Shown here one piece after another: positions 10,380-24,680 of a DNA stretch of 64,000 nt (the first letter of the stretch is position 1; each line of letters begins with the position of its first letter). The position numbers and the translations under genes were made by a program. The notes beneath the pieces were generated by a model that was given only the letters and a program-made list of their open reading frames with translations, did not search any database and was not told the origin of the DNA. The DNA comes from a virus: the IMG/VR virus record IMGVR_UViG_3300045988_169015, positions 64,001 to 128,000 of that record; one strand, written 5' to 3'.

Positions 10380-10396
10380 TACTCTTCCTTTCCATA

Positions 10397-11025: not shown

Positions 11026-11391
11026 TTACTCTTCTTTTATTTCTTCAATTATGATGCCGTACTTTTCAGCAACGGCTCTGTTTATTGTAATCTTCCTACC
11101 TTCGACTTTGAGTATCTGTGCCTGACTGAACCGTCCGACAGTAAAAGTTTTTGTCGTGACGAGCGTTTCATCTTCGTGGATATAATTATCATAGCGAGGA
11201 TCTTCTTTTGTAATATAAAAATTCGTCTGGTTCTTACTGTTATACCCACGATAATCATAACGTTTAAATCCGGTCCAGTAACCCTTTGTGAGATTACATC
11301 CGCAGTATTCACGAAGTTCCTTATACGAGTTGCAGAAGTGGTTATACGATTCGTCGGGAGTTACACATTCGACTTTGTATCTTGTTTTCAT
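11026..11391 (-). CDS. hypothetical protein
   Basis: The ORF track gives 11026..11412. GGAGG precedes the ATG at 11391 (MKTRYKVE). Confidence 0.6.
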   Translation of the reverse strand: MKTRYKVECVTPDESYNHFCNSYKELREYCGCNLTKGYWTGFKRYDYRGYNSKNQTNFYITKEDPRYDNYIHEDETLVTTKTFTVGRFSQAQILKVEGRKITINRAVAEKYGIIIEEIKEE

Positions 11392-11412
11392 TTTTATTCC
11401 TCCGATTATCAT

Positions 11413-11628
11413 TTAGTGTATCTCGTCTTCGTAGAATGGAGTGCCATCCGAATGAAGAATCTGATATACATATAAAGATACAGGTTTATTGATTTCAAAT
11501 AACCGACCATTGATGTTTGCATATATCTTTGTAAATGCTCTTCCTTCTTTTTTTCTTACACATTCGTTGATAAGAGTTTCGGCTTTCTTCGCAGCTTTAC
11601 TAAAATCAAAATCATATACCAGTTTCAT
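11413..11628 (-). CDS. hypothetical protein
   Basis: The ORF track gives 11413..11649. GGAGG precedes the ATG at 11628. Confidence 0.55.
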   Translation of the reverse strand: MKLVYDFDFSKAAKKAETLINECVRKKEGRAFTKIYANINGRLFEINKPVSLYVYQILHSDGTPFYEDEIH

Positions 11629-11645
11629 TTCTACTCCTCCAATCA

Positions 11646-11909
11646 TCAATCGTTCCAGTCAGGCTGGTCACAGTATGTAGTGTTCTCAAAAATCTTTCTC
11701 GCTTTTTGGACGGCTCTTGTTATGGATATTCTCTTTGGAAGTTTGAGCTGAACAGGAGCGAAGCAGCCGTCATAATGGAAGTCGATATTATATATCCACT
11801 GTCCATTTTCGTTTTCGAAATAGTCATAGCTATGAAGAGTTCCGTTCGGCTGATGGCTCCACACATCTGTCAGTTTCTTCATTATCCATTTTGCACCGGG
11901 TTTTATCAT
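11646..11909 (-). CDS. hypothetical protein
   Basis: 87-aa ORF with GGAGG 6 nt upstream of the start. Confidence 0.6.
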   Translation of the reverse strand: MIKPGAKWIMKKLTDVWSHQPNGTLHSYDYFENENGQWIYNIDFHYDGCFAPVQLKLPKRISITRAVQKARKIFENTTYCDQPDWND

Positions 11910-11924
11910 AGGTTGCCTCCTTAC

Positions 11925-12119
11925 TTAATATAGCTCCACATAATGTGTGCCGTCTTCTCTGCGTTCGTAGCCGCCAATCTGTGCAACGATTTCGCACATT
12001 CCGTTATAACAAATCTTGTTGGTTTCATAAGCGGTTCGGTTTGATTTTACTTCTTGCATTATCTGATATCTTAAATTGAGACGTTCAGCAAGTTTCTTTT
12101 CCATCTGTTTCCGTGTCAT
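11925..12119 (-). CDS. hypothetical protein
   Basis: The ORF track gives 11925..12128. The ATG at 12119 has GGAG 9 nt upstream. Confidence 0.5.
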   Translation of the reverse strand: MTRKQMEKKLAERLNLRYQIMQEVKSNRTAYETNKICYNGMCEIVAQIGGYERREDGTHYVELY

Positions 12120-12124
12120 GGTTA

Positions 12125-12397
12125 TCACTCCTCTTCTGCTTTTACAAAATCTTCTCCGTAATAAAGGCTGATATCCAAATCGTAATTATCAGTTACGCCC
12201 CAGCCGTTATGATATCCTTCGTCTCCATCCACAAACCAACACTCAATATCACTCAGGATATCTTCTGTATCGGGGATCATTGTTTCGTCTGCCGTGTCTT
12301 TGCCTGCATCGAGCAGCTCCTTGCGGAACGCCCGACACTCAGCAATGAAGTTATCAACTTTGCGCTTGCCGCTCTCAGTCAGTTTGAAATCGTACAT
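12125..12397 (-). CDS. hypothetical acidic protein
   Basis: 90-aa ORF with the SD GAAAGGAAA. Confidence 0.6.
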   Translation of the reverse strand: MYDFKLTESGKRKVDNFIAECRAFRKELLDAGKDTADETMIPDTEDILSDIECWFVDGDEGYHNGWGVTDNYDLDISLYYGEDFVKAEEE

Positions 12398-12409
12398 ATA
12401 TATTTCCTT

Positions 12410-13063
12410 TCAATTAACATCATTATCATTTGCTTCTTTGAGAATAATGACACCGATATACCAGTTATTTCCTCTTAAATAAATATTTCTGCCTTCATCG
12501 TCCGCAGTATTGATATCCTTTTCGGTAATAAGATCAATGCCTAAATCGTATTTTGTAATTAAGCCATTGATATGCTCGGCTACTTCATCTGAGCCGTCAA
12601 AATAATCGCCTTCGTAATCTTCGTCTTCCCCAATACTCCATTCAACATGGTAATAATCAGTGCCGAACCAACCTATATCATCGGTCATATACAGCCCGCC
12701 GTCCTTCTCCTCGGCTATCCAATGTATGGAAATACGATTATCATAATGCCTTGCGATTATCTCACGCCACATTTTGATCATTGGTATCCATGCTGTTTCG
12801 GCAAAGATATCAAAACTCGACTTATCCTGTCTGTCAGTTACATTTCCGATGTCATCGATCCATCCACGGCAGCGGATAATGTTTTCGGGATTATCGATTC
12901 TGTCGCCGAAGCCGAACCCGATGAGCACATTACCAAGCCAAGGCTCACCAAAGCCTGAAGTTTCTGCATTTGACGATGTGTACTGTACTATCTTATTGTG
13001 CAGATCCGTAAGGTCTGCGAAGTTTCCTGTAAATTCTATTTTAGTAGAACACCAATTAGGCAT
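12410..13063 (-). CDS. DUF1281/Api92-like protein (paralog A)
   Basis: Starts MPNWCSTKIEFTG. It shares ETAW.P, ISxxWxAEE and other blocks with 13610..14209. Confidence 0.6.
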   Translation of the reverse strand: MPNWCSTKIEFTGNFADLTDLHNKIVQYTSSNAETSGFGEPWLGNVLIGFGFGDRIDNPENIIRCRGWIDDIGNVTDRQDKSSFDIFAETAWIPMIKMWREIIARHYDNRISIHWIAEEKDGGLYMTDDIGWFGTDYYHVEWSIGEDEDYEGDYFDGSDEVAEHINGLITKYDLGIDLITEKDINTADDEGRNIYLRGNNWYIGVIILKEANDNDVN

Positions 13064-13077
13064 AATGTTTTCTCCTT

Positions 13078-13242
13078 TCAATCTTCAATATCGTACCCAA
13101 AATGGCAAAATCCAATTAGGTCTGAGATATAATCTCCAATATCTTCTTCGTCAACGTCATCGGGAATTTCAACTTCTGAGGGCAACTCTTCAAAAAGCTT
13201 TTTGTCTCCGTCAGTGTCCCACATAATATTTACTGCTTTCAT
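13078..13242 (-). CDS. small acidic protein (hand-found, 54 aa)
   Basis: The ATG at 13242 is preceded by AAAGGAG. The product is MKAVNIMWDTDGDKKLFEELPSEVEIPDDVDEEDIGDY... It is below the ORF-track length cutoff. Confidence 0.5.
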   Translation of the reverse strand: MKAVNIMWDTDGDKKLFEELPSEVEIPDDVDEEDIGDYISDLIGFCHFGYDIED

Positions 13243-13258
13243 ATCTACATCTCCTTTT

Positions 13259-13492
13259 TCAGTTGCGAAGTTCGTTGATCAGATCCTCATCTCCGTTTTC
13301 CAGAGCGTCGATCGTCTCTAAGTCAAGGCCGAAGCAGAAATCGCTGTCGTCCTCAAAGAACTCGTAGTTTTCGTTAGTATCAATATCGAGCGTCTCTTCT
13401 ATATATTCCAAGACTGCACGTCTCAACTCCTGCGCTCTGTTAAAGCAGTCATAGAATTCTTTTATCATACCATTAAGCTTTGCGTTATCCAT
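13259..13492 (-). CDS. hypothetical strongly acidic protein
   Basis: 77-aa ORF with the SD AAAGGAG. Confidence 0.6.
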   Translation of the reverse strand: MDNAKLNGMIKEFYDCFNRAQELRRAVLEYIEETLDIDTNENYEFFEDDSDFCFGLDLETIDALENGDEDLINELRN

Positions 13493-13609
13493 AATAAAAT
13501 CTCCTTTTCAAATTACAATTTACCAAACTTATCGTCGCTGTTTATCTTTACTCTGAGCTTACCGCCGCTTCTGAGAATGTATTTCCAATTACCCATTACA
13601 AACTCCTCT

Positions 13610-14209
13610 TTAATCAAAATCGCAGGTATCAAACAGTTCAAGCTTGTGAACTGACATAAACCAGTCTTCATTGACTTCAACTGCCACTTCCGCTTCCGCA
13701 AGAGACTTGACAGGCTCAAGTCCTGCTTTTTCAAAAACTCTGTTAACCTCTTTGAGCACCTCTTCTTCTGTGGCGCCGTAGAGGTAATCTGCATCGCTGC
13801 CTATATCGTAGTCAATGCAGTATGTCATGTCGCCAAATTCATTCATGTCGTTTGTGCAGTAGATATCGCAGCCGAACTCCTCTGCGCACCAGCTGAATGA
13901 AATGAGCTGCTCGTCATCTTTGGTATAGCATTTTGCAATTATCGCACTCCATATGCCAAGGCGAGGCGTCCATGCGGTTTCAGTATATATTGTTGCGCAA
14001 TCCCTGTCATATTCGATATCTCCTCTTAATGAGACCTTATCAGGATCGATTCCGAATTCATTGGCGATGTTGCGGAAGCTGCGTCTTTCGCAGTAGCTCA
14101 TATCAGGGTGTGCTTCATCTGAAACAGCGTGCTCGATCCTGTTGAAAAAATCTGTAAGTGCATCATCATTTCCAAAAAATCTTATCTGTGTAGAGCAAAT
14201 GTTAGCCAT
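13610..14209 (-). CDS. DUF1281/Api92-like protein (paralog B)
   Basis: The ORF track gives 13610..14275. GGAGGT precedes the ATG at 14209. The product starts MANICSTQIRFFG. Confidence 0.6.
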   Translation of the reverse strand: MANICSTQIRFFGNDDALTDFFNRIEHAVSDEAHPDMSYCERRSFRNIANEFGIDPDKVSLRGDIEYDRDCATIYTETAWTPRLGIWSAIIAKCYTKDDEQLISFSWCAEEFGCDIYCTNDMNEFGDMTYCIDYDIGSDADYLYGATEEEVLKEVNRVFEKAGLEPVKSLAEAEVAVEVNEDWFMSVHKLELFDTCDFD

Positions 14210-14268
14210 AATAGTTACCTCCAAATTCCATAAGCAGATAATCATAAAAACTTTTATCAGTGGTTGAA

Positions 14269-14493
14269 TTACCATGTAATGCGTTTGGGTATAAATTCAA
14301 TTTCTGCATTGCTATATGCAGTTATACAGTCTATCGGTGTATCAGGTTCGCCATCGAAATTTTGATATTTTGTGCATATTTTTGGCTCATGATCTTTGCG
14401 AGGATCAACATCAACAAATAACTTTCCGTTTTCGTTTTTATAAACGGGTCTGTTGTAACTGTCGTTTCCAATATAAATTAATGTTATTCTCAT
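14269..14493 (-). CDS. hypothetical protein
   Basis: GGAGG lies 8 nt upstream of the ATG at 14493 (MRITLIYIG). Confidence 0.55.
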   Translation of the reverse strand: MRITLIYIGNDSYNRPVYKNENGKLFVDVDPRKDHEPKICTKYQNFDGEPDTPIDCITAYSNAEIEFIPKRITW

Positions 14494-14570
14494 CAAAAAA
14501 TCCTCCTATCAAATGTGAATTTTACTATCTTTTTCATTATTTATAACCTCCATTAAACAATTATTTTGTT

Positions 14571-14579
14571 TTGCAATTA
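14571..14579 (-). promoter_or_regulatory. TAAYTGCAA box
   Basis: The minus strand reads TAATTGCAAAAC, followed about 25 nt later by GGAGG and an ATG. Confidence 0.45.
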
Positions 14580-15672
14580 GCATAACAAGATGTTTTCTAC
14601 AAAGGTTTAGATGTATTGGAGGAGAGTGTCCGTGACACCCGCTGATAAGCGGGGTGTAACTGGACTGATCGCCTCCTATAGTACAAAGCTATTATGCTGA
14701 TTGCAGTTATCAAAACCGAGCCTGGCGGCAATTTACTAAAACAGTTTAGATATGAGGGATCTGAAACGTCGGGCACTTGTCAGGTATGAATAGTGCCCGT
14801 CGGTGTAAGATCCCGAAATGCAGTTTGCCAAACTCGGTTATGCAGCCGGAATATCCATGGTATCGCTAAAGGAATTTAGATATGAACCTTCTGAAAGAAG
14901 AGTCATCGACGCTTCAATCAACGAAGTTGATTGAGGGTCATCGACTCATCTTTCGAAGGTGCAGTGCATATTGGATATCACGGTTACTGAATTTAATTGA
15001 AGTGCTTATTGTATTGCTGAAAGATTTTTAGATACAATGTCGTGGGTGCATCTTGAAGCTCGCACGTTTGCGAGCGGTTTTGTGATGATTCTCAATGACA
15101 TTATTGCATTTAAGGTGCTGCAATTATTTATATATATTTCCTGACCGCCGAATTTTCGCTAAAAGCATTTAGATAACATGTATCACGGAGATGAGAAACA
15201 TCCAGCAGTGTGCTGGATGGCTCTCATCTGAGGGATTACATGTTTGCATTAGGACGGACAGAAATCAGATCAGCAATTTCCGGCAGCAGTTGTTCGCTAA
15301 ATTGATTTAGATAATACCATCTTGTCTGAGGAAAGAGTACTGGGAGTGTCCCAGTACATTTCTTCGGACCAGATGCGTATTTGCATTTTGCCGCCGGGAA
15401 TTAAGAAATCATAACACCGAATTGTCGCTAAAGTAATTTAGATATAAAGAATCACGACAGCGGCGTGAAGCGATGGGTGACGCATCACGAGCGCCGAGGG
15501 AGGGATTATTGATTGCATTTTGTGTTATGAATTAGGAATTATTCGGCTTGTGGAAACATATGCTTACTAAAGATATTTAGATAAGAGGCAGCATAAACGA
15601 TCTCGAACTCTGGAGGTCTCCAGGATGAGAAGATCGTGTTGCTGCGGACTTGAATGTTGTTTCCGCAAGTCG
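14579..15672 (+). ncRNA. tandem array of eight ~120-133 nt three-way-junction RNA-like units (U1-U8), unassigned family
   Basis: Unit coordinates: U1 14579-14698, U2 14714-14839, U3 14851-14978, U4 14994-15126, U5 15137-15264, U6 15277-15400, U7 15409-15530, U8 15544-15672. Each unit has four parts: a closing helix P1 of unit-specific sequence, an invariant mini-hairpin CTAAA-N4-TTTAG followed by AT, a long unit-specific hairpin P3, and a junction that usually contains TGCA. No ORFs are present. G-U pairs favour the plus strand. Confidence 0.6.
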
Positions 15673-15680
15673 TTTTGCAG

Positions 15681-15983
15681 TTAGTGATTTGCCGCTATAG
15701 CGTCCAGCTCAGATTGGAATTCGGACACAACATATTCGGCGTCGTAATGCCACTGCTCATCGTTGTTTCTGCAGTCCTCATACATGTCTAATATGTCACG
15801 CCAAAGTTCCTGATTTGCAGTTACCTTTTCCTGCGTCTGAGCGCCATACTCTTCTTCGATAGTCATCGCCATATCTTCTGCGTTGTATTCACTCTTGACG
15901 AATTTATAAACATCGAAAGCATCGTAAGAACTAAGCACTGTGCCGTTGACAACGTATTCGCCATTACTGTTTCGTGTTACCAT
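15681..15983 (-). CDS. hypothetical acidic protein
   Basis: 100-aa ORF with GGAGG 7 nt upstream. Its stop codon is the TAA of a TAACTGCAA box. Confidence 0.65.
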   Translation of the reverse strand: MVTRNSNGEYVVNGTVLSSYDAFDVYKFVKSEYNAEDMAMTIEEEYGAQTQEKVTANQELWRDILDMYEDCRNNDEQWHYDAEYVVSEFQSELDAIAANH

Positions 15984-16016
15984 ATGTATTCCTCCGTTAC
16001 AATTATAATAGTATAA

Positions 16017-16143
16017 CTCTCAGCCGCAGCGATTTACTAAAACCATTTAGATTAAGAGTCCGTGATTTACGAGCATCGTACGGGAGTGATAACTGTCGTC
16101 GATGCTTATAAATCCGGATGATATGCACTTTGCTGACTGAGAG
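16017..16143 (+). ncRNA. ninth unit (U9) of the same RNA-like family
   Basis: P1 is CTCTCAG..CAGC / GCTG.CTGAGAG. P2 is CTAAA-ACCA-TTTAG-AT (16037-16052). A long hairpin follows. The unit is followed by TTTGCAGTTATTTTTTTATT. Confidence 0.55.
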
Positions 16144-16158
16144 TTTGCAGTTATTTTT

Positions 16159-16989
16159 TTATTCCATATTCGCAAAAGGATCGCTGAGGCTGATGTAGTT
16201 TTCCGCCATAGAAACCTTAAGTGCCTTATAGAAATAGTAGTCGGGTGACTGAATCTCGAGTCTGAGTTTTCTGAGGGCATTCTCTCTGGTGTAAACTTCA
16301 TCGAACCAGTGAAGAATAAATCTTCCGTCAAACATGATATAGTTTTTGAGAGTATAATAAGCGCCAGCCTTCTTGAAGCTGCGAATAAACGCATCAGCAA
16401 GCTCGTGGTTCTTGAAGTATCTGCCGCCCTTCATGCCTGTGCCTTCGGGGATATCAAACGCTCTCTTTGCAATTACCAGTTCAATAGCCTCTGCAATTAC
16501 AGCGAAGTCTGAGTATGACCAAGCGGTATTTATAAGGCTCTGAAGACTGGGCTGGAACTCCTTAGCGAAGTTCATAAATATATCGGCGATGCTATTCACA
16601 TCAAAGAAATGCTTGCGCTCTTCAAATGCAACGGGGTCGTTATCTTTGAGGTGAGCCAGCAGCTTAGCTTCCTTACAGGTATAGAGGATACTGTACTTAT
16701 AGGTATAGAAATTTGCGATTACCTGATTGATACTTGTGGTGACACTCTCCTGTCTCATAAGTCTAATGAACTGAGCGGAGATCCAACGTCTTGTTGTTCT
16801 GGGGTTATAGACTTCGCCGCAGATCGTCTTGCCAAAATACTTACCGTGCGCAGGAATTGAGTTATCATTGTCGGCAGGGATTGGAGTATTAGCCATATCG
16901 AGCATTGACTTTGCCACCAGTTTTGCGAACTCATTCATATCGAGGTTGCTGTTGTTAAGGTTAACGTTGTTCGTGTTGTTGTTAGTCAT
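16159..16989 (-). CDS. hypothetical protein (RT-module neighbour)
   Basis: 276-aa ORF with the SD AAAGGAG and an Asn-rich N-terminus. Confidence 0.7.
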   Translation of the reverse strand: MTNNNTNNVNLNNSNLDMNEFAKLVAKSMLDMANTPIPADNDNSIPAHGKYFGKTICGEVYNPRTTRRWISAQFIRLMRQESVTTSINQVIANFYTYKYSILYTCKEAKLLAHLKDNDPVAFEERKHFFDVNSIADIFMNFAKEFQPSLQSLINTAWSYSDFAVIAEAIELVIAKRAFDIPEGTGMKGGRYFKNHELADAFIRSFKKAGAYYTLKNYIMFDGRFILHWFDEVYTRENALRKLRLEIQSPDYYFYKALKVSMAENYISLSDPFANME

Positions 16990-17032
16990 AATAAATTTCT
17001 CCTTTTAATATGTATGGTTTATGGTTTTCGGG

Positions 17033-17476
17033 TTACTGGATATAGCTGCGATAGATTATGAAACTATCGGTCAGTTTACGGAACCAGCCGGGCGTTTCCC
17101 ATTTAAGGGTACCGTTAAGACTTCCGATTATAATAGCGGCACAAAGCTTTGCGTGCATTACATCTCGGTTATCGTTACGGTAAAAGTCGGTCATGCTCAG
17201 CTCATCGGCAGACAGAGGTTTAAACAGGTAAGTCTTGCGGCTGTTCTCACTGCTCGGTGACGAATGAATAAAGTTCTCGTAAAGAGTTACCAGATCGTCA
17301 TAGCCGGACACAGGAGACCCCAACGAGTCGATAACTTCGCCGCCTATCATATCAGCTACAAGCTTGCCGTTTTCCATTACGACACGCTTATCTATTCTGA
17401 TATTCTTTTTGACCAGATCGAACCTGAGCTTATGCCCCGATTCTGATTTTGCAATTAACGCATCATACAGCGTCAT
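17033..17476 (-). CDS. hypothetical protein (RT-module neighbour)
   Basis: The ORF track gives 17033..17485. The ATG at 17476 has GGAG 9 nt upstream. It overlaps the end of the RT gene by 14 nt. Confidence 0.65.
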   Translation of the reverse strand: MTLYDALIAKSESGHKLRFDLVKKNIRIDKRVVMENGKLVADMIGGEVIDSLGSPVSGYDDLVTLYENFIHSSPSSENSRKTYLFKPLSADELSMTDFYRNDNRDVMHAKLCAAIIIGSLNGTLKWETPGWFRKLTDSFIIYRSYIQ

Positions 17477-18842
17477 GTATAACACCTCCTTTTATTTTGT
17501 TTATCTCGCTCAGCCAGAGTTCGTGGTCGGTATGATAGACTTTGTACATATGATTAAGGCTGTACCAACCGGCAGCCCTTACCATATCTATTCCGTCTGC
17601 CACAGTCCTTTTCCTGTTGGCTTTAACGTTTATTCCTTTCTGGAACTGGATCGTGTAATTGGGGTTATTATCTGTAGAACCGAGACCCCAAACCTTATTG
17701 CGACCTGTTATCACTGCTCTTAAACAATCTTTACAATACCTGTCTATCATGTCGATATCATGTTTGCAGTTAACGGTTCCGAACAGATACTGACACATGC
17801 CGAACTGGTTGCTGTTCTCTTCATATGCAAGGAACAGATACCTCTGGAGCCGCCTGCATATCCGCTTGGTCTCCGCTTCGGTAGCCGGTCTTTTGTGTTC
17901 TCTGCTCCACTGTATCGTTTCAGATTTTATATGCTGCTCGATACCTCTGAGAGTTTTTGCAGACACAGTTATCAAGTCGCCACGTATCTTAAAGCCCAGA
18001 AACTCGAACCAGTCTTTATCTGCCTGTAACGCTTTGACCTTTTTGGGATTAAGAGTTACACCCTTTGGTTCGAGCATCTGCTTTATAACTTCGAGGGCGT
18101 GGTCAGCTTCCCTGCCGAGGATTATGATATCGTCAGAATAGCGATAATAGATAACATCCATATTACTTATGGTCTCATCTATATCTCTCAAGCACAGGTC
18201 AGCCAGCAGACAGGCGATAGGATTGCCCTGACTTAGTGATTTATATCTGTATTCGGGTTTTCCGTTTATGATTATAGTATCGTCGTGATAATGTTTAATT
18301 ACTATGTTATCGATACAATCCTTATCGGGAGTTATGATATCGAGTGTTCTGTCAAGCGTTTCACGATTTACGGTATCAAAGAACTTGCTCAGGTCAAGCT
18401 TGTATCCTTTGTACCATTTCTTACGGTTCATCTCACTGACAAGAGCCTTTACGGTCTTGCCGGCTGACAGTCCCCTGCGGTAAGAAACGCAGTTAGGATG
18501 TATCAGGTGGTGAAAATCGTCGTAATACATCTTATAGAATGTATTGCACAGAACTCGGTCAAACGTTTCGAGAACTGCAAGCTTGCGGACTTCTTCAAAG
18601 TTTCGCTTCTCTGCTTCGGCGAATGTCAACCAGTTGTCTGTAAGCTTGTCAATGTACATCTCTACAGGGGCTTTGAACTCGATTTTGCAATTAGCGATAA
18701 GGTCGCCTGCAAGAGCCCACGCTGCATCTTGCGAAAACGTGGACAGCACGCACATATCGAGTCCCTTGCGGTCGATGTGCAAAAGCGCTCTTTCATGCAG
18801 CTCTCGGTCGTTCACAAACCGTTCAAGTTTATTCGGTTTCAT
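17463..18842 (-). CDS. reverse transcriptase, group-II-intron-like (RT plus maturase/thumb-like C-terminus), free-standing
   Basis: Motifs seen in order: DRVLCNTFY, SYRRGLSAGK, KLDLSKFFDTV, LSQGNPIACLLADLCL, YYRYSDDIIILG, GVTLNPKKVK and FEFLGFKI. A thumb-like LQRYLF...IDRYCKDCLRAV and AAGWYSLNHMY follow. Confidence 0.85.
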   Translation of the reverse strand: MKPNKLERFVNDRELHERALLHIDRKGLDMCVLSTFSQDAAWALAGDLIANCKIEFKAPVEMYIDKLTDNWLTFAEAEKRNFEEVRKLAVLETFDRVLCNTFYKMYYDDFHHLIHPNCVSYRRGLSAGKTVKALVSEMNRKKWYKGYKLDLSKFFDTVNRETLDRTLDIITPDKDCIDNIVIKHYHDDTIIINGKPEYRYKSLSQGNPIACLLADLCLRDIDETISNMDVIYYRYSDDIIILGREADHALEVIKQMLEPKGVTLNPKKVKALQADKDWFEFLGFKIRGDLITVSAKTLRGIEQHIKSETIQWSREHKRPATEAETKRICRRLQRYLFLAYEENSNQFGMCQYLFGTVNCKHDIDMIDRYCKDCLRAVITGRNKVWGLGSTDNNPNYTIQFQKGINVKANRKRTVADGIDMVRAAGWYSLNHMYKVYHTDHELWLSEINKIKGGVIHDAV

Positions 18843-18958
18843 TTATCTCTTCTCCTTTCCGATTATTCTTATTACAGTTATCAGTTCATCGTCATACAGA
18901 TAACATTCGCAGTCATCTCCATGACGGCATGATGTTGTCCCCTTGTCATCATATACAG

Positions 18959-19126
18959 TTATTCTTCTTCCACCTCCCAAGTATCTGTTTCTGCATCGTC
19001 AAGATAGAGATTACAGTTATTATAAAATGATTTCTCTGCCGCTTTCACCGCTGCATCTTTATTTTCAGCTTCGATGTGAAGCGTTGTATATCCAGTTACT
19101 AAAAGTGTTACACTGTACTTCTTCAT
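18959..19126 (-). CDS. small hypothetical protein (hand-found, 55 aa)
   Basis: The ATG at 19126 is preceded by GGAGG. The product is MKKYSVTLLVTGYTTLHIEAENKDAAVKAAEKSFYNN... Confidence 0.5.
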   Translation of the reverse strand: MKKYSVTLLVTGYTTLHIEAENKDAAVKAAEKSFYNNCNLYLDDAETDTWEVEEE

Positions 19127-19371
19127 TTATAAGCCTCCTCTACTGTATATGTAACGATGTTACCGTCGGTCAGACTTATTGTTTTCAGATTCTCCCTTTC
19201 GTCGCACGTTTCATCTACGTGTATGTGAAGGTTGTCATATTCCAATAAGTCAAGGCAGTATGCCCTCTGCAGTTCTTCAACTGCGGTATCATAATCATCG
19301 CAGAGCTGAACAAGAAGTATGCCGTCATAAGCACTGCGAATAATTACAGCATAACCTATCTGATTCATCAC
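19123..19371 (-). CDS. hypothetical protein
   Basis: 82-aa ORF with the SD AAGGAG upstream. Confidence 0.6.
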   Translation of the reverse strand: MMNQIGYAVIIRSAYDGILLVQLCDDYDTAVEELQRAYCLDLLEYDNLHIHVDETCDERENLKTISLTDGNIVTYTVEEAYK

Positions 19372-19374
19372 CTA

Positions 19375-19548
19375 TCACTTCTCCTTTATAGATATGATTA
19401 CATTTTTCCTAACCTTGAAATTATCGAAAACGAATAACATCTTTGTTTCCTTTTCAAATTTTCCGGTTAGAATAACGTCGCACGTCACCAGCGGTTTCGT
19501 ATGGACTTTTATTCTTTTGGTTATTTCATATGACTGACCTATGTTCAT
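19375..19548 (-). CDS. small hypothetical protein (hand-found, 57 aa)
   Basis: The ATG at 19548 is preceded by TAACTGCAAAAGGAGAACGAGA (box plus SD). Confidence 0.5.
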   Translation of the reverse strand: MNIGQSYEITKRIKVHTKPLVTCDVILTGKFEKETKMLFVFDNFKVRKNVIISIKEK

Positions 19549-19561
19549 TCTCGTTCTCCTT

Positions 19562-19570
19562 TTGCAGTTA
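19562..19570 (-). promoter_or_regulatory. TAAYTGCAA box
   Basis: The minus strand reads TAACTGCAAAAGGAG. The TAA is the stop codon of the upstream gene, and the box abuts the SD of the next gene. Confidence 0.45.
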
Positions 19571-20143
19571 CGGTCTTAATGACCACTTGACTGTTTTGAT
19601 AAATGTTTCCTCAAAATAGTTATCGAGGCCGAAGCGATAGTTATTATAGACTTCTTTCATATCGCTCTTACTGAACCCGGTTTCGTCAAGGATATCTTCT
19701 ATACCGTCGCTGCCGTAAAAACCGCCACAGCTGTATAATGGCCCATCGAATTCATACAAGGTGTACCCGTACACCTCGCCGCTCGCATACTGATTGAGTG
19801 CCTCTATTTCGCCCTGCAAAACTGTTTTCGCAGTTGCAATTGTAGAATCGTCAACCTTTCCGTATTCTTTTTCGATCTCATCATAGGTGACATAGATAAG
19901 ACCGCATATTCCGCTGTCCCATCTGTCGCCAAAATCCGAAAGTGAAAATGTTACTCCGCTATGTACGTAAGCATACACAGGATACTGAACTCTTTTGATA
20001 CCGGAAAGTGCAGTTGTCAGCTCCTGAAATGATTTGTAGTTATGCTTGTCTCCGTAAGCTCTTGTATCTCTTCCAAAGAGAATCAGATGTCCGAGACTGT
20101 CCCATTCTCTCGGTGATTCGCAGTCGTAATCTTTATAAATCAC
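19568..20143 (-). CDS. hypothetical protein
   Basis: 191-aa ORF with a GTG start, coupled to an 18-codon upstream mini-ORF. Confidence 0.65.
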   Translation of the reverse strand: MIYKDYDCESPREWDSLGHLILFGRDTRAYGDKHNYKSFQELTTALSGIKRVQYPVYAYVHSGVTFSLSDFGDRWDSGICGLIYVTYDEIEKEYGKVDDSTIATAKTVLQGEIEALNQYASGEVYGYTLYEFDGPLYSCGGFYGSDGIEDILDETGFSKSDMKEVYNNYRFGLDNYFEETFIKTVKWSLRP

Positions 20144-20211
20144 AAGAGTGTTTTACCTTTTGTACCTACCATAACAATTTCATTATTGCATACCATATTG
20201 AATGCCTCCTA

Positions 20212-20913
20212 TTACCACCAAGGACAAAATACTGTCTTGCCATTTTCCCATTTTTCCAAAAACTCTTCACTTAAACCACCTGTCTTACATAAGGTCTCTA
20301 TTACCCTCTCGTCTCCACAATAAGAACAATTTTCCGGAAGTGCATCCCAACCCGCATCTGTCAATCCCTTACGCTGATAACAAATCTCTTCAAGATTTAC
20401 AACATAAACCACCTCATACTGCTCCACTATGTATTTACCGTTATATTTTCGTCCGCCACTTTCTGTGAAACTATTTTCGAAAATTACCTCTGCTTTGTAT
20501 GTAGCAGTTTCAACATCCTCTTCCTTTAATTCCACATTACATTTTATTGCAAAGCCATCATCTTGCTGTACAACAGTTGAATTGCCTGTTTTCACTTTAT
20601 AGTCTTTCTTAATGGTTATGTATAGCATATTAACTGTTTGATTATCACAATATTTTACACCACCATATTTAGATGTTATAACCATATCGCTTGTAAGACC
20701 CATAACATCTATAAGTATCTGCTTGATCTCTATATACCATTTCTTTATTTCACCTTTTACTAAATACTCTTTATATGGAAATGCAATATATTCCTCTTCG
20801 TTAAATAAGACCAGTCCATCTTCTTCTCGGGTATAAATCTCATCTTCCGTTAAACTAAAACCCTCTGCTATATCAGGTTTACTTACTTCATATAAATACA
20901 TATCAAGTCCCAT
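20212..20913 (-). CDS. hypothetical protein
   Basis: 233-aa ORF with the SD AAAGGAG. Confidence 0.7.
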   Translation of the reverse strand: MGLDMYLYEVSKPDIAEGFSLTEDEIYTREEDGLVLFNEEEYIAFPYKEYLVKGEIKKWYIEIKQILIDVMGLTSDMVITSKYGGVKYCDNQTVNMLYITIKKDYKVKTGNSTVVQQDDGFAIKCNVELKEEDVETATYKAEVIFENSFTESGGRKYNGKYIVEQYEVVYVVNLEEICYQRKGLTDAGWDALPENCSYCGDERVIETLCKTGGLSEEFLEKWENGKTVFCPWW

Positions 20914-20933
20914 AGGTATTTTCTCCTTTCAAA

Positions 20934-21293
20934 TTATACAATAGCCCATGTCACACCGTGATAAACATCATTAAGGGTACAGATGGGTACGTAAAGTATT
21001 TCTGCATTATCCCAAGATTTAAGTTCATTTTCTTCGATAACTCTAATTTTTAAACGCAAGTCAAAATAATCGGCTACGTCTCCAACATCATCAGCTTTAC
21101 CCCACCATATCGCTTTGCGAAGTTGATAAGCAGCTGAAAGATATTTTACAATTCCATCACGAAACAATGGATAATTGTCATTGATATTAAATTCACCATC
21201 GTTATTTGTTATCTGTTCTATCAGATACTGTCCGAGACCGTTAAGCTCTCTACCAAAATCATTATCGTGCAGAGTTATTTCAAGATACTTCAT
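20934..21293 (-). CDS. hypothetical protein
   Basis: The ORF track gives 20934..21374. GGAGG precedes the ATG at 21293. Confidence 0.6.
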   Translation of the reverse strand: MKYLEITLHDNDFGRELNGLGQYLIEQITNNDGEFNINDNYPLFRDGIVKYLSAAYQLRKAIWWGKADDVGDVADYFDLRLKIRVIEENELKSWDNAEILYVPICTLNDVYHGVTWAIV

Positions 21294-21307
21294 TTGCAGT
21301 CCTCCTT

Positions 21308-21709
21308 TTATGCAGTTCTTATCAGTCCGCCGAACATCGGTGTCACTCCAATGCTTCCCATATCGGAACACCATTCGTCGTCGAGGTTTATAACCATTGC
21401 AATAGGGTAGCCTGCTTTGATATCCTTGTTATCCATTTCCCATTCCTCTTCATACTGACTTACAAACAGCATAGAAAAGCAGCGCCCGAAATGTGTCGGG
21501 GTATAAATGGCGTGATATACAAGTGCATTGTGCTCGGCTTCAAATTTTTCGATTATCTTCTGTTCATCTTCATTTGCCCAGTAGAGAGCACCCATCTGCT
21601 TGCTGACGTTTACTCTCCCCTGCTTTAAGTCTGCGATTGTGTTTTTATGAAGCTTCAGTGCTTTCATTCTTTCGATTGCTTCTGTGAGCTGCTGTTCTTT
21701 TGTTACCAT
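21308..21709 (-). CDS. hypothetical protein
   Basis: The ORF track gives 21308..21736. GGAGG precedes the ATG at 21709. Confidence 0.6.
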   Translation of the reverse strand: MVTKEQQLTEAIERMKALKLHKNTIADLKQGRVNVSKQMGALYWANEDEQKIIEKFEAEHNALVYHAIYTPTHFGRCFSMLFVSQYEEEWEMDNKDIKAGYPIAMVINLDDEWCSDMGSIGVTPMFGGLIRTA

Positions 21710-21780
21710 AATAATTTCCTCCTTACTCGGTTTCAATAAGATTTACAATGAGCATAATAATCGCAATTACAAAACTCAAA

Positions 21781-21990
21781 TTACCACTCCCTTGATAGTA
21801 CATCTCCATGAGGCATTCTTTTCCTCCTCCTGCAGATATCTTCGGCTATCTCCCGCATAAGCTCATAACTGTAATTCTCGGGACAGCTTTTTATATATTT
21901 GACAGACGACTTACAGATAGAACATCTGCCTTTTGTGTTATAAGCACACTCAGTGCAGATGCCGTTATCAAACCCTGTTTTCGTAGGCAT
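21781..21990 (-). CDS. small Cys-rich (zinc-ribbon-like) protein
   Basis: The ORF track gives 21781..22104. The ATG at 21990 is preceded by AAAGGAG. CTEC...CSIC motifs are present. Confidence 0.55.
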   Translation of the reverse strand: MPTKTGFDNGICTECAYNTKGRCSICKSSVKYIKSCPENYSYELMREIAEDICRRRKRMPHGDVLSREW

Positions 21991-21997
21991 CACTCCT

Positions 21998-23380
21998 TTA
22001 TTTTTTGTAGTAATCAAGTTCATCATTGACGACGAACACGTACTCAGCTTCAGTTTCATCATACCTACAGATGGTATTGTTCTTAGTAAAGGCAACTGCG
22101 TCAATTGGAGTTACGATAATATTGAACTTATCATAATCTTCATCTTCATTGGAACTATAGTCAATAAGCTTGTAGATCTTATTATCTTTACCGATATAGA
22201 AATCGTCAGTACCGTCTGTTTCAATCATTGAACCGTCTGCAAGCATAAGATATTCAGAGTTGTAGAGCAGAGTTGCCTTTATCATATTGTCCCAGAGCGA
22301 CTCATCTTCTTCATAATCAGTTTCATCATCTGGGAAAGAATTGATAACAGTTTTACCGGTCTTGTCCTTGCCGTAGTATCTGCCGTAATCGAAGTCGTCA
22401 TATCCGTCATCGCCGTCCCAGCCGTAGTATCTTTTACTGGCATAACCTCGGTAGCTGTATATAGCTTCAATGTATTCGTACTTTGCAGTTTTACCCTCGG
22501 CTACATCCTTGATAATTGTATTTACTCTTTCGATAACGTTATAAAGCTCATCAAGAACGATATACTCGCTTGTGGTATGAGCATTGTAATATCCGCTGCT
22601 GAAGTTTACAGCTGCAACACCGAGAGCGGGAGCTACATATGAGATGTCAGAGCAGGAACCATATGCAGTCTTAAAGCCGTATGTGTCAATGAACTTCTCA
22701 AATTCGGGATTATCGCAGTCATAGTACACGCTGTCGTTTGAGCCTTTGCGATCCACTTCAATTATGAAGTTGATGTTTATGTCTTCGAGATTGATAATGC
22801 TATTACGGATATCGTCTGCGAAGTAATCAGCTCCCACACAGCCTATCTCTTCGTCTTCGGTAAAGAGAATGTAAGGCTTAATGCCATCTCTGATACTCAT
22901 AAGTGCAGTATAGATACCGCATCTGTCATCGCCGCCGATACCCTGCGGAGACCAGACGCAGCCCTTATCGGACATATAAATGTCTCGAACGGGTTCCTTA
23001 TGAACAGTATCCATATGAGCACACATCATTACGGGAACATTGCCTTTTGCGAATAAGTATCCGTCCGCATAGACAACATCATAACCGAAGCCGACGAGTA
23101 TCGAGTAAAGAAAATCTTTGAGAGCATACTGCTCAAGTCGGATTATCTTTTCAAACAGAGATGAAAGAGGTCTGAAATCTCTTGTGCTGCCGATGATAGA
23201 ATTATATTTTTCGATCATCTTATTTACGTTGTCGAGATCGGGTGTTTTGGGATTGAGGTTTCTTACGTGTTTTTCCGGTTCGTATTTCTTTACCTTGGGT
23301 GATAAAGTATTAAATGCGGAAATATTTGCGGTTGCGGGAGTGGTAGTAGTAGTTGTAGTAGTTGTTGTAGGCATAGCCAT
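21998..23380 (-). CDS. M20/M28-type metallopeptidase-like protein with an N-terminal poly-Thr tract
   Basis: Motifs CAHMDTVH, GGDDRCG and TEDEEIG. The N-terminus is MAMPTTTTTTTTTTPA. Confidence 0.65.
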   Translation of the reverse strand: MAMPTTTTTTTTTTPATANISAFNTLSPKVKKYEPEKHVRNLNPKTPDLDNVNKMIEKYNSIIGSTRDFRPLSSLFEKIIRLEQYALKDFLYSILVGFGYDVVYADGYLFAKGNVPVMMCAHMDTVHKEPVRDIYMSDKGCVWSPQGIGGDDRCGIYTALMSIRDGIKPYILFTEDEEIGCVGADYFADDIRNSIINLEDININFIIEVDRKGSNDSVYYDCDNPEFEKFIDTYGFKTAYGSCSDISYVAPALGVAAVNFSSGYYNAHTTSEYIVLDELYNVIERVNTIIKDVAEGKTAKYEYIEAIYSYRGYASKRYYGWDGDDGYDDFDYGRYYGKDKTGKTVINSFPDDETDYEEDESLWDNMIKATLLYNSEYLMLADGSMIETDGTDDFYIGKDNKIYKLIDYSSNEDEDYDKFNIIVTPIDAVAFTKNNTICRYDETEAEYVFVVNDELDYYKK

Positions 23381-23402
23381 TTTCCTCCATTAAATTATTT
23401 GA

Positions 23403-24680
23403 TTAGAAGCGGTCATAATCATCATAAGAATCGACATCGGGGGCATCGTCATCACAATTATCATTTGCAATTGACGAATCGCAGTTATCACAATAAAGTG
23501 AACTGCACATTATATCATTAACATCTGATGTTGAGCGGTACTTCTGTGCCCCGCATTCTATACAATATGTACTACCGCCGACTGATATTGTGTTGCTCTG
23601 CTTCGGCAAATCGGGATTATCATATTTAAGTACCGTATAAAACTTCCAGTCGGGGTACATAAACGTATCGGGGTTGCTTTTGATTATTGTGTGATTTGGC
23701 GTCCACGAGCCGGGGACACCTTCGCACTCCGAAAGAATTTTCTGGACACGGTTTCGATATATGAAATACGGATTGCTGTCGCTCTCACAATAGTCTATTG
23801 ACTTGGGGTATATTCTTTCGTGAACTATGTGGGGCGACTTATAGAATATCACTTGTCGGGTTATCTTCGGTATCTTCCACAATTCTCTTGATTCGAAGTT
23901 CTTATCATCAAGAGTGTAGAACAGAAGTGAAACCCTGTCAGTCAGATAGGACATACAACCTGCTTTGTGCTTTCCTTTATACTCAAAGCCATCGAAATTG
24001 CGGCTTGGAGTTAAACACATACAGTTGCTCCATGAGTTGCCATGGCTCATTGTAAGGTAATCCATAGGATTGACTGAGAGAACCGCAGTTCGCTTGAAGG
24101 CTCGGGGTGATATGCAGTCGCTTATCTTTGCGAAGATGCGGTTATACTCCGGGTGTTTTGTAAAACCGAAGTATTCATAGACTTTGTTCAGAATTCGTGT
24201 CGATTTTTGACCGCTCTTGAATTTAAATTCGGGAGCTATCAGATTTATTGTGGACACGATATCGCCATCAACAGTTTCCGAAAAACAATGCTGAGTTACA
24301 AATCGGAGAGCAGTGTCGTTATTGTTATTCATTGAAAAGAACATCCTGAACTCATCGGGGACGTTTCCACCGTGATTATCGAAGATGTGCTTTCTCAGTT
24401 TTGTAATTATGTTATATGAAACATCGCTGTTTTCAAAAATCAGTGCCCGCATCTCATCGCAGAAACTAAAGTAATTGCTGTCAAGTTCTCGCTTCTCGGT
24501 TATTGTAGTAACGATTGCGAGCTCGTCCTCTCGCCACATAGGGTGTTTGCGAAGTAACTCAAGAAGCGGAGTTTTATTTTTGCTCCACTCGTTTATGTTT
24601 TTGGCAACACCAAGCTCGGAGCAGGATATCCCGAGGCTTCTGAGATAATTGACTGCGGTTGTTGTTATGCTGTTTACCAT
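23403..24680 (-). CDS. hypothetical protein, paralog of 24680..26752, Cys-rich C-terminus
   Basis: Shares the blocks F.KHPEYNRIFAKISD, VLS.NP.D.L.MS.GNSW..C and GGSTYCIECGAQK with the upstream gene. Confidence 0.75.
   Translation of the reverse strand: MVNSITTTAVNYLRSLGISCSELGVAKNINEWSKNKTPLLELLRKHPMWREDELAIVTTITEKRELDSNYFSFCDEMRALIFENSDVSYNIITKLRKHIFDNHGGNVPDEFRMFFSMNNNNDTALRFVTQHCFSETVDGDIVSTINLIAPEFKFKSGQKSTRILNKVYEYFGFTKHPEYNRIFAKISDCISPRAFKRTAVLSVNPMDYLTMSHGNSWSNCMCLTPSRNFDGFEYKGKHKAGCMSYLTDRVSLLFYTLDDKNFESRELWKIPKITRQVIFYKSPHIVHERIYPKSIDYCESDSNPYFIYRNRVQKILSECEGVPGSWTPNHTIIKSNPDTFMYPDWKFYTVLKYDNPDLPKQSNTISVGGSTYCIECGAQKYRSTSDVNDIMCSSLYCDNCDSSIANDNCDDDAPDVDSYDDYDRF

What the first reader, a model, noticed from the sequence alone, without database searches (positions are those of the whole stretch)
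16159..18842. Free-standing group-II-intron-like reverse transcriptase in a phage early operon
The 459-aa protein has all RT motifs with YSDD, an FLGF motif 7, and a maturase/thumb-like tail. No intron ribozyme is present. The flanks are coding: small ORFs lie upstream, and the downstream gene overlaps the RT gene by 14 nt. I see no domain V-like sequence. It lacks the DGR-type SQ..AN motif and the retron VTG motif. It is translationally linked to two unknown proteins (147 and 276 aa), followed by unit U9 of the RNA array. Two TAAYTGCAA boxes lie inside the RT gene itself. A phage-borne RT of this class with dedicated partners suggests either a cDNA-producing function in counter-defence or replication, or a link to the adjacent structured RNAs.
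Basis: partly seen in the sequence, partly recalled or inferred. Interest (0 to 1): 0.7.

Follow-up and report, generated by a model that had tools for sequence, protein, structure and literature searches.

The report
Phage UG27 reverse transcriptase system

Summary
A 459-aa RT (17463-18842, minus strand; YSDD, FLGF) overlaps a 147-aa gene by 14 nt. A 276-aa gene follows, then structured RNA units.

It is not a group II intron RT. Profile searches place the RT in UG27 (class 2 UG/Abi; 287 bits, against 96 for the group II model, whose cut-off is 300). The two partners match the UG27-associated families RTas346 and RTas337. No intron RNA is detectable.

Nine units of 118-131 nt lie downstream (16144-14579). 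Each has a basal stem, a 5' loop motif UGYA, a long central hairpin and a 3' loop motif AUCUAAA-N4-UUUAG. This is the UG27 ncRNA array architecture published in September 2026, with variant motifs. In that work the three proteins copy each central hairpin into 50-100-nt ssDNA; here the predicted templates are 74-90 nt.

RT, both partners and a motif array co-occur in relatives: 224 motif hits on the RT strand against 6 opposite, in 41 loci.

Verdict: a new member of a known kind. One extra finding: in near-identical phages, the apical hairpins of particular units (U9, U4, U6) are replaced by different, still self-pairing sequences. The biological role remains unknown.

The parts
17463..18842 (-). 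UG27 reverse transcriptase, 459 aa (YSDD 235-238, FLGF 281-284)
   Evidence: PADLOC RT_UG27 E=5e-86, 287 bits, residues 79-446 on profile positions 65-416 of 420. Pfam RVT_1. Group II model below its cut-off.
17033..17476 (-). Small accessory protein (sORF, cluster 346), 147 aa; overlaps the RT stop by 14 nt
   Evidence: PADLOC RTas346 E=7e-18 over the whole length. Found next to the RT in 33 related loci. No Pfam, PHROG or NCBIfam hit.
16159..16989 (-). Large accessory protein (bORF, cluster 337), 276 aa; all-alpha; conserved motifs GxxYNP..RR..QF, AFEER and FKKAGAYYTLKN
   Evidence: PADLOC RTas337 E=1e-20. Alignment A3. AF2 model pLDDT 75, pTM 0.69, with no fold match in PDB or BFVD. Present in 31 related loci.
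16016..16144 (-). ncRNA unit U9. Basal stem 16144-16132 / 16030-16016; predicted cDNA template 16127-16050; 3' motif ATCTAAATGGTTTTAG at 16052. The apical part, about 16110-16067, is hypervariable between strains.
   Evidence: (z=-6.0).
15681..15983 (-). 100-aa acidic ORF inserted between U9 and U8, with a GGAGG Shine-Dalgarno. Lineage-specific and not a generic UG27 component.
   Evidence: Homologues only in L001, L002 and L109 at the same position. No family hit.
15547..15669 (-). ncRNA unit U8. Its 5' loop motif is the canonical AUUCAA; template 15654-15580; ATC at 15582.
   Evidence: (z=-5.6).
15409..15531 (-). ncRNA unit U7 (template 15517-15441; ATC at 15443)
   Evidence: (z=-3.5).
15280..15397 (-). 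ncRNA unit U6 (template 15385-15310; ATC at 15312); has two alleles among close relatives
   Evidence: (z=-6.4).
15137..15264 (-). ncRNA unit U5 (template 15248-15172; ATC at 15174)
   Evidence: (z=-6.4); 4 pairs changed on both sides; no pair broken by substitution (one has a gap in three sequences).
14995..15125 (-). ncRNA unit U4 (template 15108-15031; the 3' motif has one extra base, ATCTAAAAATCTTTCAG at 15033). Hypervariable, and this window's allele has the weakest fold.
   Evidence: (z=-3.1).
14851..14978 (-). ncRNA unit U3 (template 14968-14879; ATC at 14881)
   Evidence: (z=-5.8).
14716..14837 (-). ncRNA unit U2 (template 14822-14749; ATC at 14751)
   Evidence: (z=-5.7); 6 pairs changed on both sides.
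14579..14700 (-). ncRNA unit U1 (template 14685-14610; ATC at 14612; 3' motif ATCTAAACCTTTGTAG)
   Evidence: (z=-6.9); 2 pairs changed on both sides.

Best explanation
The locus is a complete UG27 system carried in the early (minus-strand) region of a large phage that probably infects Bacillota. It has an RT (class 2 UG/Abi), a small and a large accessory protein, and an array of nine structured ncRNA units.

Proposed mechanism:
1. The genes and the array are transcribed together on the minus strand (inferred).
2. Each unit folds into a basal stem that closes an asymmetric internal loop, from which a long central hairpin rises (shown here by folding and covariation).
3. The RT/sORF/bORF complex starts DNA synthesis at the AUC of the 3' loop motif (AUCUAAA-N4-UUUAG). 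It copies the central hairpin and stops at the 5' loop motif (UGYA here, UUYA in the published consensus). This step is inferred by homology with the five systems tested in the 2026 preprint.
4. The output would be nine different ssDNA hairpins of about 74-90 nt.

The cellular role of these hairpins is unknown. Two features point to a specificity-carrying product used during infection, for example decoys or ligands for host factors or defence sensors, rather than a housekeeping product. The system sits in an early operon, and the apical hairpins of particular units are replaced between near-identical phages. This last step is speculative.
For: Proteins. RT_UG27 scores 287 bits, against 158 for UG26, the next-best group. 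The partners match RTas346 and RTas337.

Array. Nine units on the RT strand carry the invariant ATCTAAA..T.TAG motif. They are spaced 130-152 nt apart, apart from the ORF between U9 and U8, and there are none elsewhere in the 64 kb.

Structure.
- Folding z-scores run from -3.1 to -6.9 for all nine units; a false in-gene hit gave -0.2.
- Compensatory changes occur at 4, 6 and 2 pairs in U5, U2 and U1, with almost no broken pairs.
- In a sister lineage, all 11 basal-stem pairs show double changes.

Co-occurrence.
- sORF was found in 33 and bORF in 31 of the 35 loci whose RT is >=30% identical. Neither was found in the 77 loci with other RTs.
- The generalised 3' motif occurs 224 times on the RT strand against 6 on the other strand in 41 UG27 loci. 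It occurs 5 times in 779 kb of non-UG27 loci.

Literature.
- Mestre 2022 (PMC9226505) defined UG27 plus clusters 337 and 346 plus a putative ncRNA in gut phages.
- bioRxiv 10.64898/2026.09.22.753630 describes arrays of about 135-, 149- and 167-nt units. cDNAs of 50-100 nt run from AUC to UUYA. YSDD and both accessory proteins are required.
- The predicted templates here are 74-90 nt.
Against: - No experiment exists on this locus. The cDNA step rests on a not-yet-peer-reviewed preprint and on systems whose RTs are only about 25-35% identical.
- The exact published motif AUC-N7-UANAG is absent from the array: 12 hits in the window against 11 expected, none of them in the array. Here the spacer is 8 nt, the end is UUUAG, and the 5' motif is UGYA in 8 of 9 units.
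- I could not run the published covariance models. My own cross-lineage model did not recover these units.
- No promoter or terminator signal defines the transcript.
- The role of the cDNAs is unknown, and no complementarity to the rest of the window was found.
Confidence: 0.8

Rival explanations
1. A free-standing group II intron-like (G2L) RT, or the remnant of a mobile group II intron whose ribozyme has decayed. It would work on its own as a maturase-like or repair polymerase.
For: Among NCBIfam models the best hit is group II RT/maturase. The nearest solved structures by sequence are Cas6-RT-Cas1 and group II intron RTs, at E about 1e-11 to 1e-12 and over the RT domain only.
Against: The group II model scores 96 bits against a cut-off of 300, while the UG27 profile scores 287 bits over nearly the whole protein. 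There is no GIIM/maturase Pfam domain and no intron RNA even at E<=10. The conserved partners and the RNA array are not features of G2L RTs.
Confidence: 0.03
2. A retron-like element. Each unit would be an msr/msd-type RNA, and the cDNA would stay branched to the RNA through a 2'-5' link, acting as an abortive-infection sensor.
For: It works alike in outline: an RT copies a hairpin of an adjacent structured ncRNA into a short ssDNA, and accessory proteins are needed.
Against: The retron RT model scores 44 bits against a cut-off of 235. The VTG motif is absent. No inverted a1/a2 repeats with a priming G were seen. There are nine tandem templates instead of one. The unit architecture (basal stem plus AUC/UGYA loop motifs) is that of UG27. 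Priming has not been determined for UG27.
Confidence: 0.05
3. A self-diversifying, DGR-like system. Error-prone cDNA of a unit would be copied back into the array or another target, which would explain the hypervariable hairpins.
For: The variable segments lie inside the predicted cDNA-templating region, next to an RT. At the U9 position there are six alleles in ten genomes on a constant scaffold.
Against: Substitutions affect all four bases and come with compensatory partners, not the adenine-specific pattern of DGRs. No template/variable repeat pair, no Avd, and no DGR-type RT motif were found. Only some units vary. L001's U9 stem resembles that of a different unit of another lineage (L109 unit 1), which fits recombination better.
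Confidence: 0.07
4. The same UG27 machinery, but serving as a phage-carried defence or superinfection-exclusion module (a DRT in the strict sense) rather than an offensive or counter-defence tool.
For: UG27 belongs to the UG/Abi family, many of whose groups are antiviral. Phages often carry defence genes against competitors.
Against: Mestre 2022 found no defence-island enrichment for UG27 and predicted a non-defence role. Here the system sits among small early genes of a roughly 110-185 kb phage, with no integrase seen in the window. Neither role has been tested.
Confidence: 0.2

Closest known systems
UG27 reverse-transcriptase systems (class 2 UG/Abi; Mestre et al. 2022 NAR, PMC9226505; ncRNA array and cDNA products in bioRxiv 10.64898/2026.09.22.753630, Sept 2026)
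   Same: RT family; both accessory protein families (clusters 346 and 337); phage-borne; tandem array of about 120-150-nt units with a basal stem, an asymmetric internal loop carrying short motifs, and a variable central hairpin; YSDD active site; template length within the published 50-100-nt cDNA range.
   Different: The RT is longer (459 aa against about 400-420) and only about 25-35% identical to Bacteroidota-phage members. The array lies after the three genes rather than between the RT and sORF, and a 100-aa ORF splits it. The 3' motif is AUCUAAA-N4-UUUAG (8-nt spacer, UUUAG) instead of AUC-N7-UANAG. The 5' motif is UGYA instead of UUYA, except in U8. The units are of the short class, for which no pseudoknot is reported. 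Nothing has been tested experimentally for this lineage.
Retrons
   Same: An RT plus an adjacent structured ncRNA whose hairpin is copied into a short single-stranded DNA; accessory proteins are needed.
   Different: A different RT clade; one template rather than nine; no msr/msd inverted repeats or VTG motif; the branch-priming of retrons is not shown for UG27; retrons are bacterial defence systems, whereas this is a phage early gene set.
DRT2 / DRT9 / DRT3 (other class 2 and related UG RTs with ncRNA templates)
   Same: A UG/Abi RT that reads a dedicated neighbouring ncRNA.
   Different: Those make long or concatemeric cDNAs (rolling-circle or poly-dA type) from a single ncRNA, and they defend bacteria. 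Per the preprint, UG27 makes short discrete hairpins from many units and needs two extra proteins.
Group II intron RT/maturases and G2L RTs
   Same: RT fingers/palm motifs 1-7 with a YxDD active site, and a C-terminal thumb-like region; they are the nearest solved structures by sequence.
   Different: Scores below the family threshold; no maturase or endonuclease domains detected; no ribozyme; has dedicated partners and an RNA array.
Diversity-generating retroelements
   Same: Phage-borne RT next to short variable sequence cassettes.
   Different: No TR/VR pair, no Avd, no adenine-specific changes; the variable segments are RNA hairpins, not part of a target-binding protein gene.

Membership tests
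UG27 system | RT matches the UG27 profile better than any other RT group | tested here: met
   PADLOC RT_UG27 E=5e-86, 287 bits, near full length. The next best are UG26 at 158 bits and the generic RT at 93 bits.
UG27 system | Small accessory protein of cluster 346 adjacent to the RT | tested here: met
   RTas346 E=7e-18, residues 5-149 on profile positions 2-144 of 147. It overlaps the RT gene by 14 nt.
UG27 system | Large accessory protein of cluster 337 adjacent | tested here: met
   RTas337 E=1e-20. Conserved with the RT in 31 related loci.
UG27 system | Tandem array of about 135-170-nt structured ncRNA units on the RT strand | tested here: met
   Nine units spaced 130-152 nt, with folding z-scores of -3.1 to -6.9 and compensatory changes.
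UG27 system | Unit architecture: a basal stem, an asymmetric internal loop whose motifs bracket a central hairpin | tested here: met
   Constrained folds of all nine units and of nine L109 units. Basal-stem covariation.
UG27 system | Published loop motifs AUC-N7-UANAG (3') and UUYA (5') | tested here: inconclusive
   The exact pattern is absent from the array. Related variants are present: AUCUAAA-N4-UUUAG and UGYA, with U8 carrying UUCA. Other UG27 lineages show intermediate forms: N8 TTAAG/TAAAG in L003 and L110-112, N7 TANAG in L021 and L025, N8 TANAG in phage BS-TP1.
UG27 system | Units match the published UG27 covariance models | not testable with these tools
   The models are not in Rfam 15. 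My surrogate cross-lineage model R1 was too weak: best hit U7 at 19 bits, E about 1.
UG27 system | RT-, sORF- and bORF-dependent synthesis of 50-100-nt ssDNA from each central hairpin | not testable with these tools
   Shown only for five other systems. The predicted templates here are 74-90 nt.
UG27 system | Carried by a phage or prophage | tested here: met
   Terminase, portal and tRNAs in the window. Relatives lie on IMG/VR contigs of 111-146 kb.
Group II intron RT/maturase | Scores above the curated threshold of the group II RT/maturase model | tested here: not met
   TIGR04416 gives 96.4 bits against a cut-off of 300.
Group II intron RT/maturase | Intron ribozyme (domains I-VI) surrounding the ORF | tested here: not met
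   No Rfam group II hit at gathering thresholds or at E<=10. The flanks are coding.
Retron | Retron-type RT (VTG motif, retron RT profiles) with an msr/msd ncRNA | tested here: not met
   retron_St85_RT scores 44 bits against a cut-off of 235. No VTG. No retron RNA family hit.
DGR | Template and variable repeats with adenine-specific differences; Avd accessory protein | tested here: not met
   Allelic differences involve all four bases. The partners match the UG27-associated clusters, not Avd.

The most novel reading that the evidence does not exclude
The apical parts of particular UG27 units would be exchangeable specificity cassettes under diversifying selection. At the U9 position, ten genomes whose flanking genes are 95-100% identical within each lineage carry six unrelated, individually self-pairing apical sequences on an invariant scaffold. 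U4 has four alleles in four genomes. The U9-equivalent and one other unit are again the hot spots in the sister lineage. If this holds, each cDNA hairpin would be a ligand or decoy matched to a variable host or competitor factor. The array would then be a phage-side repertoire in an arms race, somewhat like an inverted CRISPR array. A further possibility is that the lineage-wide, strand-specific TAAYTGCAA box, whose core resembles the units' 5' stop motif, is read by the same machinery.
Probability: 0.25. Interest if true: 0.7.

Novelty: new member of a known kind. Interest (0 to 1): 0.35.

Why it matters
UG27 is one of the most abundant RT systems in gut phages, and what its DNA hairpins do is unknown. 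This locus adds a divergent, probably Bacillota-phage lineage with variant start and stop motifs, which helps to show which features are essential. Comparing it with near-identical phages shows where the system evolves fastest: the apical halves of specific templates. That narrows the search for the cDNAs' targets and suggests unit-swap experiments. As a discovery it is not new, because the protein trio was described in 2022 and the array and its cDNA output in 2026.

Tried and rejected
- Near-identity DNA search of 15500-19500 against deposited phages: no match.
- Exact published motif ATC-N7-TANAG in the window: chance level, and none in the array.
- My heuristic unit finder produced an apparent unit inside the RT gene (window about 17925), conserved in position in L002 and L003. 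Its folding z-score is -0.16, so I rejected it as a coding-sequence coincidence.
- Cross-lineage covariance model R1, built from 22 units of L003 and L110-112. It recovered only U7, at E about 1, among equally scoring false hits, with filters on or off. It is uninformative because the central hairpins cannot be aligned.
- AF2 of the small protein with 3 sequences: pLDDT 39, unusable.
- Foldseek of the large-protein model against PDB and BFVD: nothing below E=0.5.
- Promoter and terminator scan of 13500-20500: no excess over shuffles; the 'terminators' found are unit hairpins.
- blastn-short of the nine predicted templates against the window: only chance 11-12-mers.
- Exact-match scans of the U9 and U5 apical sequences in IMG/VR: only the same phage lineage, no target-like contexts.
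- Scaffold-anchored scans for more U9 alleles in IMG/VR and JGI metagenomes returned only alleles already seen.
- DGR-like adenine mutagenesis was considered and rejected.
Full report
**1. Observation.**
The minus strand carries three consecutive genes:
- 17463-18842, 459 aa.
- 17033-17476, 147 aa from the ATG behind a GGAGG. The mechanical ORF list gives 150 aa from an upstream GTG.
- 16159-16989, 276 aa.

The first two overlap by 14 nt (ATGACGCTGTATGA). The second and third are 43 nt apart, and the third has its own ribosome-binding site.

The 459-aa protein has Pfam RVT_1 (E=3e-21). YSDD lies at 235-238 and FLGF at 281-284, and both are invariant in an alignment of 36 homologues.

Rfam finds only seven tRNAs in the window at gathering thresholds. 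In 13500-20500, even at E<=10, it finds nothing resembling a group II intron.

The window is phage DNA:
- It encodes a large terminase, a portal, an exonuclease and a tRNA nucleotidyltransferase, plus seven tRNAs.
- The portal is 35-40% identical to those of 120-168 kb phages of Brevibacillus, Alicyclobacillus and Bacillus.
- Strong GGAGG ribosome-binding sites fit a Bacillota host.

The stated facts are therefore confirmed.

**2. What the proteins are.**
Against PADLOC models the RT matches RT_UG27: E=5e-86, 287 bits, residues 79-446 on profile positions 65-416 of 420. It is well ahead of UG26 (158 bits) and every other RT group.
- The 147-aa protein matches RTas346 (7e-18, full length).
- The 276-aa protein matches RTas337 (1e-20).
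- These are the two gene clusters that Mestre et al. 2022 found associated with UG27 RTs (PMC9226505).

It scores only 96 bits against a cut-off of 300. The nearest solved structures match the RT domain only, at E about 1e-11 to 1e-12.

Neither partner has a Pfam, PHROG or NCBIfam hit.
- An AF2 model of the large partner is confident in its core (pLDDT 75, pTM 0.69, all-alpha), but has no fold match in PDB or BFVD.
- The model of the small partner is unusable.

**3. The RNA array.**
Reading the minus strand from 16200 to 14500 shows nine copies of ATCTAAA-N4-TTTAG. U4 and U1 deviate slightly. The ATC triplets lie at 16052, 15582, 15443, 15312, 15174, 15033, 14881, 14751 and 14612. There are none elsewhere in the 64 kb on either strand.

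Each unit (118-131 nt between the ends of its basal stem) has five parts:
- a basal 5' arm;
- a short 5' loop containing U-G-Y-A, mostly AAUGCAA (U8 has AUUCAA);
- a central hairpin of 58-75 nt;
- a 3' loop carrying the AUCUAAA..UUUAG motif;
- the basal 3' arm.

Three lines of evidence support the structure:
- All nine units fold far better than shuffles, with z from -3.1 to -6.9. An in-gene false positive gave -0.16.
- Alignments of orthologous units from seven genomes give 4, 6 and 2 pairs changed on both sides for U5, U2 and U1, with almost no broken pairs.
- In a sister lineage, RNAalifold recovers the basal stem, and all 11 of its pairs show double changes.

U9 lies directly after the 276-aa gene. 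A 100-aa ORF (15681-15983), found only in this lineage, separates it from U8-U1.

**4. Literature.**
The September 2026 preprint 10.64898/2026.09.22.753630 reports the following:
- UG27 loci consist of an RT, an sORF, a bORF and an array of about 135-, 149- or 167-nt units. Each unit has a basal hairpin and an asymmetric internal loop whose short motifs bracket a central stem.
- Five systems expressed in E. coli make 50-100-nt ssDNAs. Synthesis starts at the AUC of AUCNNNNNNNUANAG and ends after UUYA.
- The YSDD motif and both accessory proteins are required.
- The biological role is unknown.

The architecture I derived from the window matches this description. The predicted templates (UGYA through AUC) are 74-90 nt.

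The motifs, however, are variants. The exact published pattern is at chance level in the window and absent from the array. Other UG27 lineages bridge the gap:

| Loci | RT identity to window | 5' motif | 3' motif |
|---|---|---|---|
| L003, L110-112 | 39-48% | AUUCAA | AUCUAAA-N4-UUAAG or UAAAG |
| L021, L025 | 32-34% | UUCA or UUUA | AUC-N7-UANAG |
| L013, L018, L029 | 33-36% | not examined | AUCGUAAA-N4-UGAAG |
| Bacteroides phage BS-TP1 | 33% | not examined | AUC-N8-UA[AC]AG, spaced 168-175 nt |

**5.
- An iterated profile search over all ORFs of the fetched loci finds the sORF in 33 and the bORF in 31 of the 35 loci whose RT is at least about 30% identical. The exceptions are L020 and L030, which end close to the RT and show neither, and L027 and L028, which show the sORF only.
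- It finds neither protein in the 77 loci with other RTs that merely share the YRYSDD pattern.
- A generalised 3' motif, ATC(N0-1)TAAA-N3-6-TNNAG, occurs 224 times on the RT strand against 6 on the opposite strand in 41 UG27 loci. Thirty-four of the 41 have at least two copies. It occurs only 5 times in 779 kb of the non-UG27 loci.

The RT, its partners and the array therefore travel together. The refutation condition is not met.

**6. Mechanism and rivals.**
The best-supported reading is that this is a working UG27 system that turns nine RNA hairpins into nine ssDNA hairpins.
- Shown here: protein family membership, RNA architecture, co-occurrence.
- Inferred from the preprint: cDNA synthesis, its boundaries, and the need for all three proteins.
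- Inferred from gene order and the absence of terminator signals: co-transcription.

Membership in group II introns, retrons and DGRs each fails on tested defining features. Whether the system serves the phage offensively or as an exclusion or defence module is open. Mestre et al. found no defence-island association.

**7. An addition beyond the published description.**
I compared the window with four phages of its own lineage (L001, L002, L117, L118). Their RT genes are 96-98% identical to it, and 91-95% at third codon positions.
- Most units are 93-99% identical. The apical parts of U9, U4 and U6 are not: hairpin identity falls to 0.51, 0.61 and 0.75 respectively.
- The scaffold stays constant (CATCCGGAT...AAATCACGGA, the loop motifs and the basal stem). 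Each variant keeps its own pairing and a similar stability, except this window's U4 allele, which folds more weakly.
- In the sister lineage (L109, L113-116) the hot spots are again central hairpins, including the U9 equivalent.
- Across ten genomes that position has six alleles.
- The changes affect all four bases, so this is not DGR-like mutagenesis. One allele's stem resembles that of a different unit in another lineage, which hints at cassette exchange.
- The alleles recur in independent assemblies, so they are not assembly errors.
- The preprint's main text mentions gain and loss of whole units, but not this.
- I found no complementarity of these sequences to the window or to IMG/VR beyond the same phages.

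**8. The TAAYTGCAA boxes.**
The box is real. It is the most over-represented strand-specific word of the early region, both in this window and in the 87%-identical lineage (L109), which has 13 copies on the gene strand and none on the other in 12.9 kb.
- Positions inside genes are not conserved between the lineages. Both RT boxes are lost in L109.
- Several boxes supply the TAA stop codon of a gene and sit 15-35 nt before the next start.
- L109 has a tandem cluster of four to six boxes in an intergenic region.
- The box is essentially absent from the other UG27 phage lineages checked: none on either strand in L003, L110, L021 and L025, and one per strand in L111 and L112.

It therefore looks like a lineage-specific regulatory or processing signal, not a generic UG27 part. 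Its core does resemble this lineage's UGCA stop motif, and that resemblance is unexplained.

**9. Verdict.**
The locus is a new, divergent member of a known and recently characterised kind of system. Interest is moderate to low as a discovery. Some added value lies in the motif variants and in the unit-specific hypervariability.

Noticed in passing
window 16110-16067 (U9), 15100-15040 (U4), 15371-15315 (U6); L109:8389-8448 and L109:8989-9048: Between phages whose RT genes are 96-98% identical, the apical parts of particular ncRNA units are replaced by different, individually self-pairing sequences on an invariant scaffold. The U9 position has six alleles in ten genomes, and U4 has four in four. 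The other units stay 93-99% identical.
   Followed up: partly
window 10301-28940, minus strand (15 sites); L109:1318-1400: TAAYTGCAA is the most over-represented strand-specific word of the early region in this phage lineage and in its 87%-identical sister. Its positions turn over between the lineages. Some copies supply the stop codon of a gene just upstream of the next start. L109 has a tandem intergenic cluster of 4-6 boxes in a 36-nt repeat. The box is essentially absent from other UG27 phages, and its function is unknown.
   Followed up: partly
window 15681-15983 (-): A 100-aa acidic ORF with a strong Shine-Dalgarno sits inside the ncRNA array, between U9 and U8. It is conserved only in this lineage and its sister (L001, L002, L109) and has no family match.
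   Followed up: partly
L119 (PQ571274.1, Bacteroides phage BS-TP1, 79351-81963): A cultured Bacteroides salyersiae phage carries a UG27-type RT, annotated 'tail protein'. A 1.35-kb unannotated gap follows, holding at least 7 units (ATC-N8-TA[AC]AG, spaced 168-175 nt), and then three small genes. It is a possible laboratory model for UG27.
   Followed up: partly
window 18300-18120 (RT), 16385-16206 (bORF), 15847-15788 (orf100): Short patches of 83-92% identity lie inside otherwise 97-100% identical genes when the window is compared with L001 and L002. This suggests mosaic recombination within the operon.
   Followed up: no
window 12410-13081 (-) and 13610-14275 (-): Two neighbouring genes of 223 and 221 aa just downstream of the array look like paralogues, with similar N-termini (PNWCSTKIEFTGNFADLTDL and ANICSTQIRFFGNDDALTDF). 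Neither has a PHROG match.
   Followed up: no
window 216-3023 (-), 55214-55288 (+), 40646-41986 (+); L118:1291-2124: The phage carries seven tRNA genes (Leu x3, Asn, Gln, Lys, Glu) and a tRNA nucleotidyltransferase. A close relative additionally encodes a Thg1-like protein upstream of the RT.
   Followed up: no
L124 (OLVO01000003.1, contig of 401,949 bp); L123 (contig of 184,920 bp): The same array (U9 allele C) lies on much longer contigs than the 111-146 kb IMG/VR contigs. This could mean a prophage state, a larger genome or a chimeric assembly, and it could reveal the host.
   Followed up: no
window 27600-27660 and 28890-28940 (-): Two genes that each follow a TAAYTGCAA box start with the same ATGAAAACTGCAAAA (MKTAK...). 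They may be paralogous small early genes.
   Followed up: no
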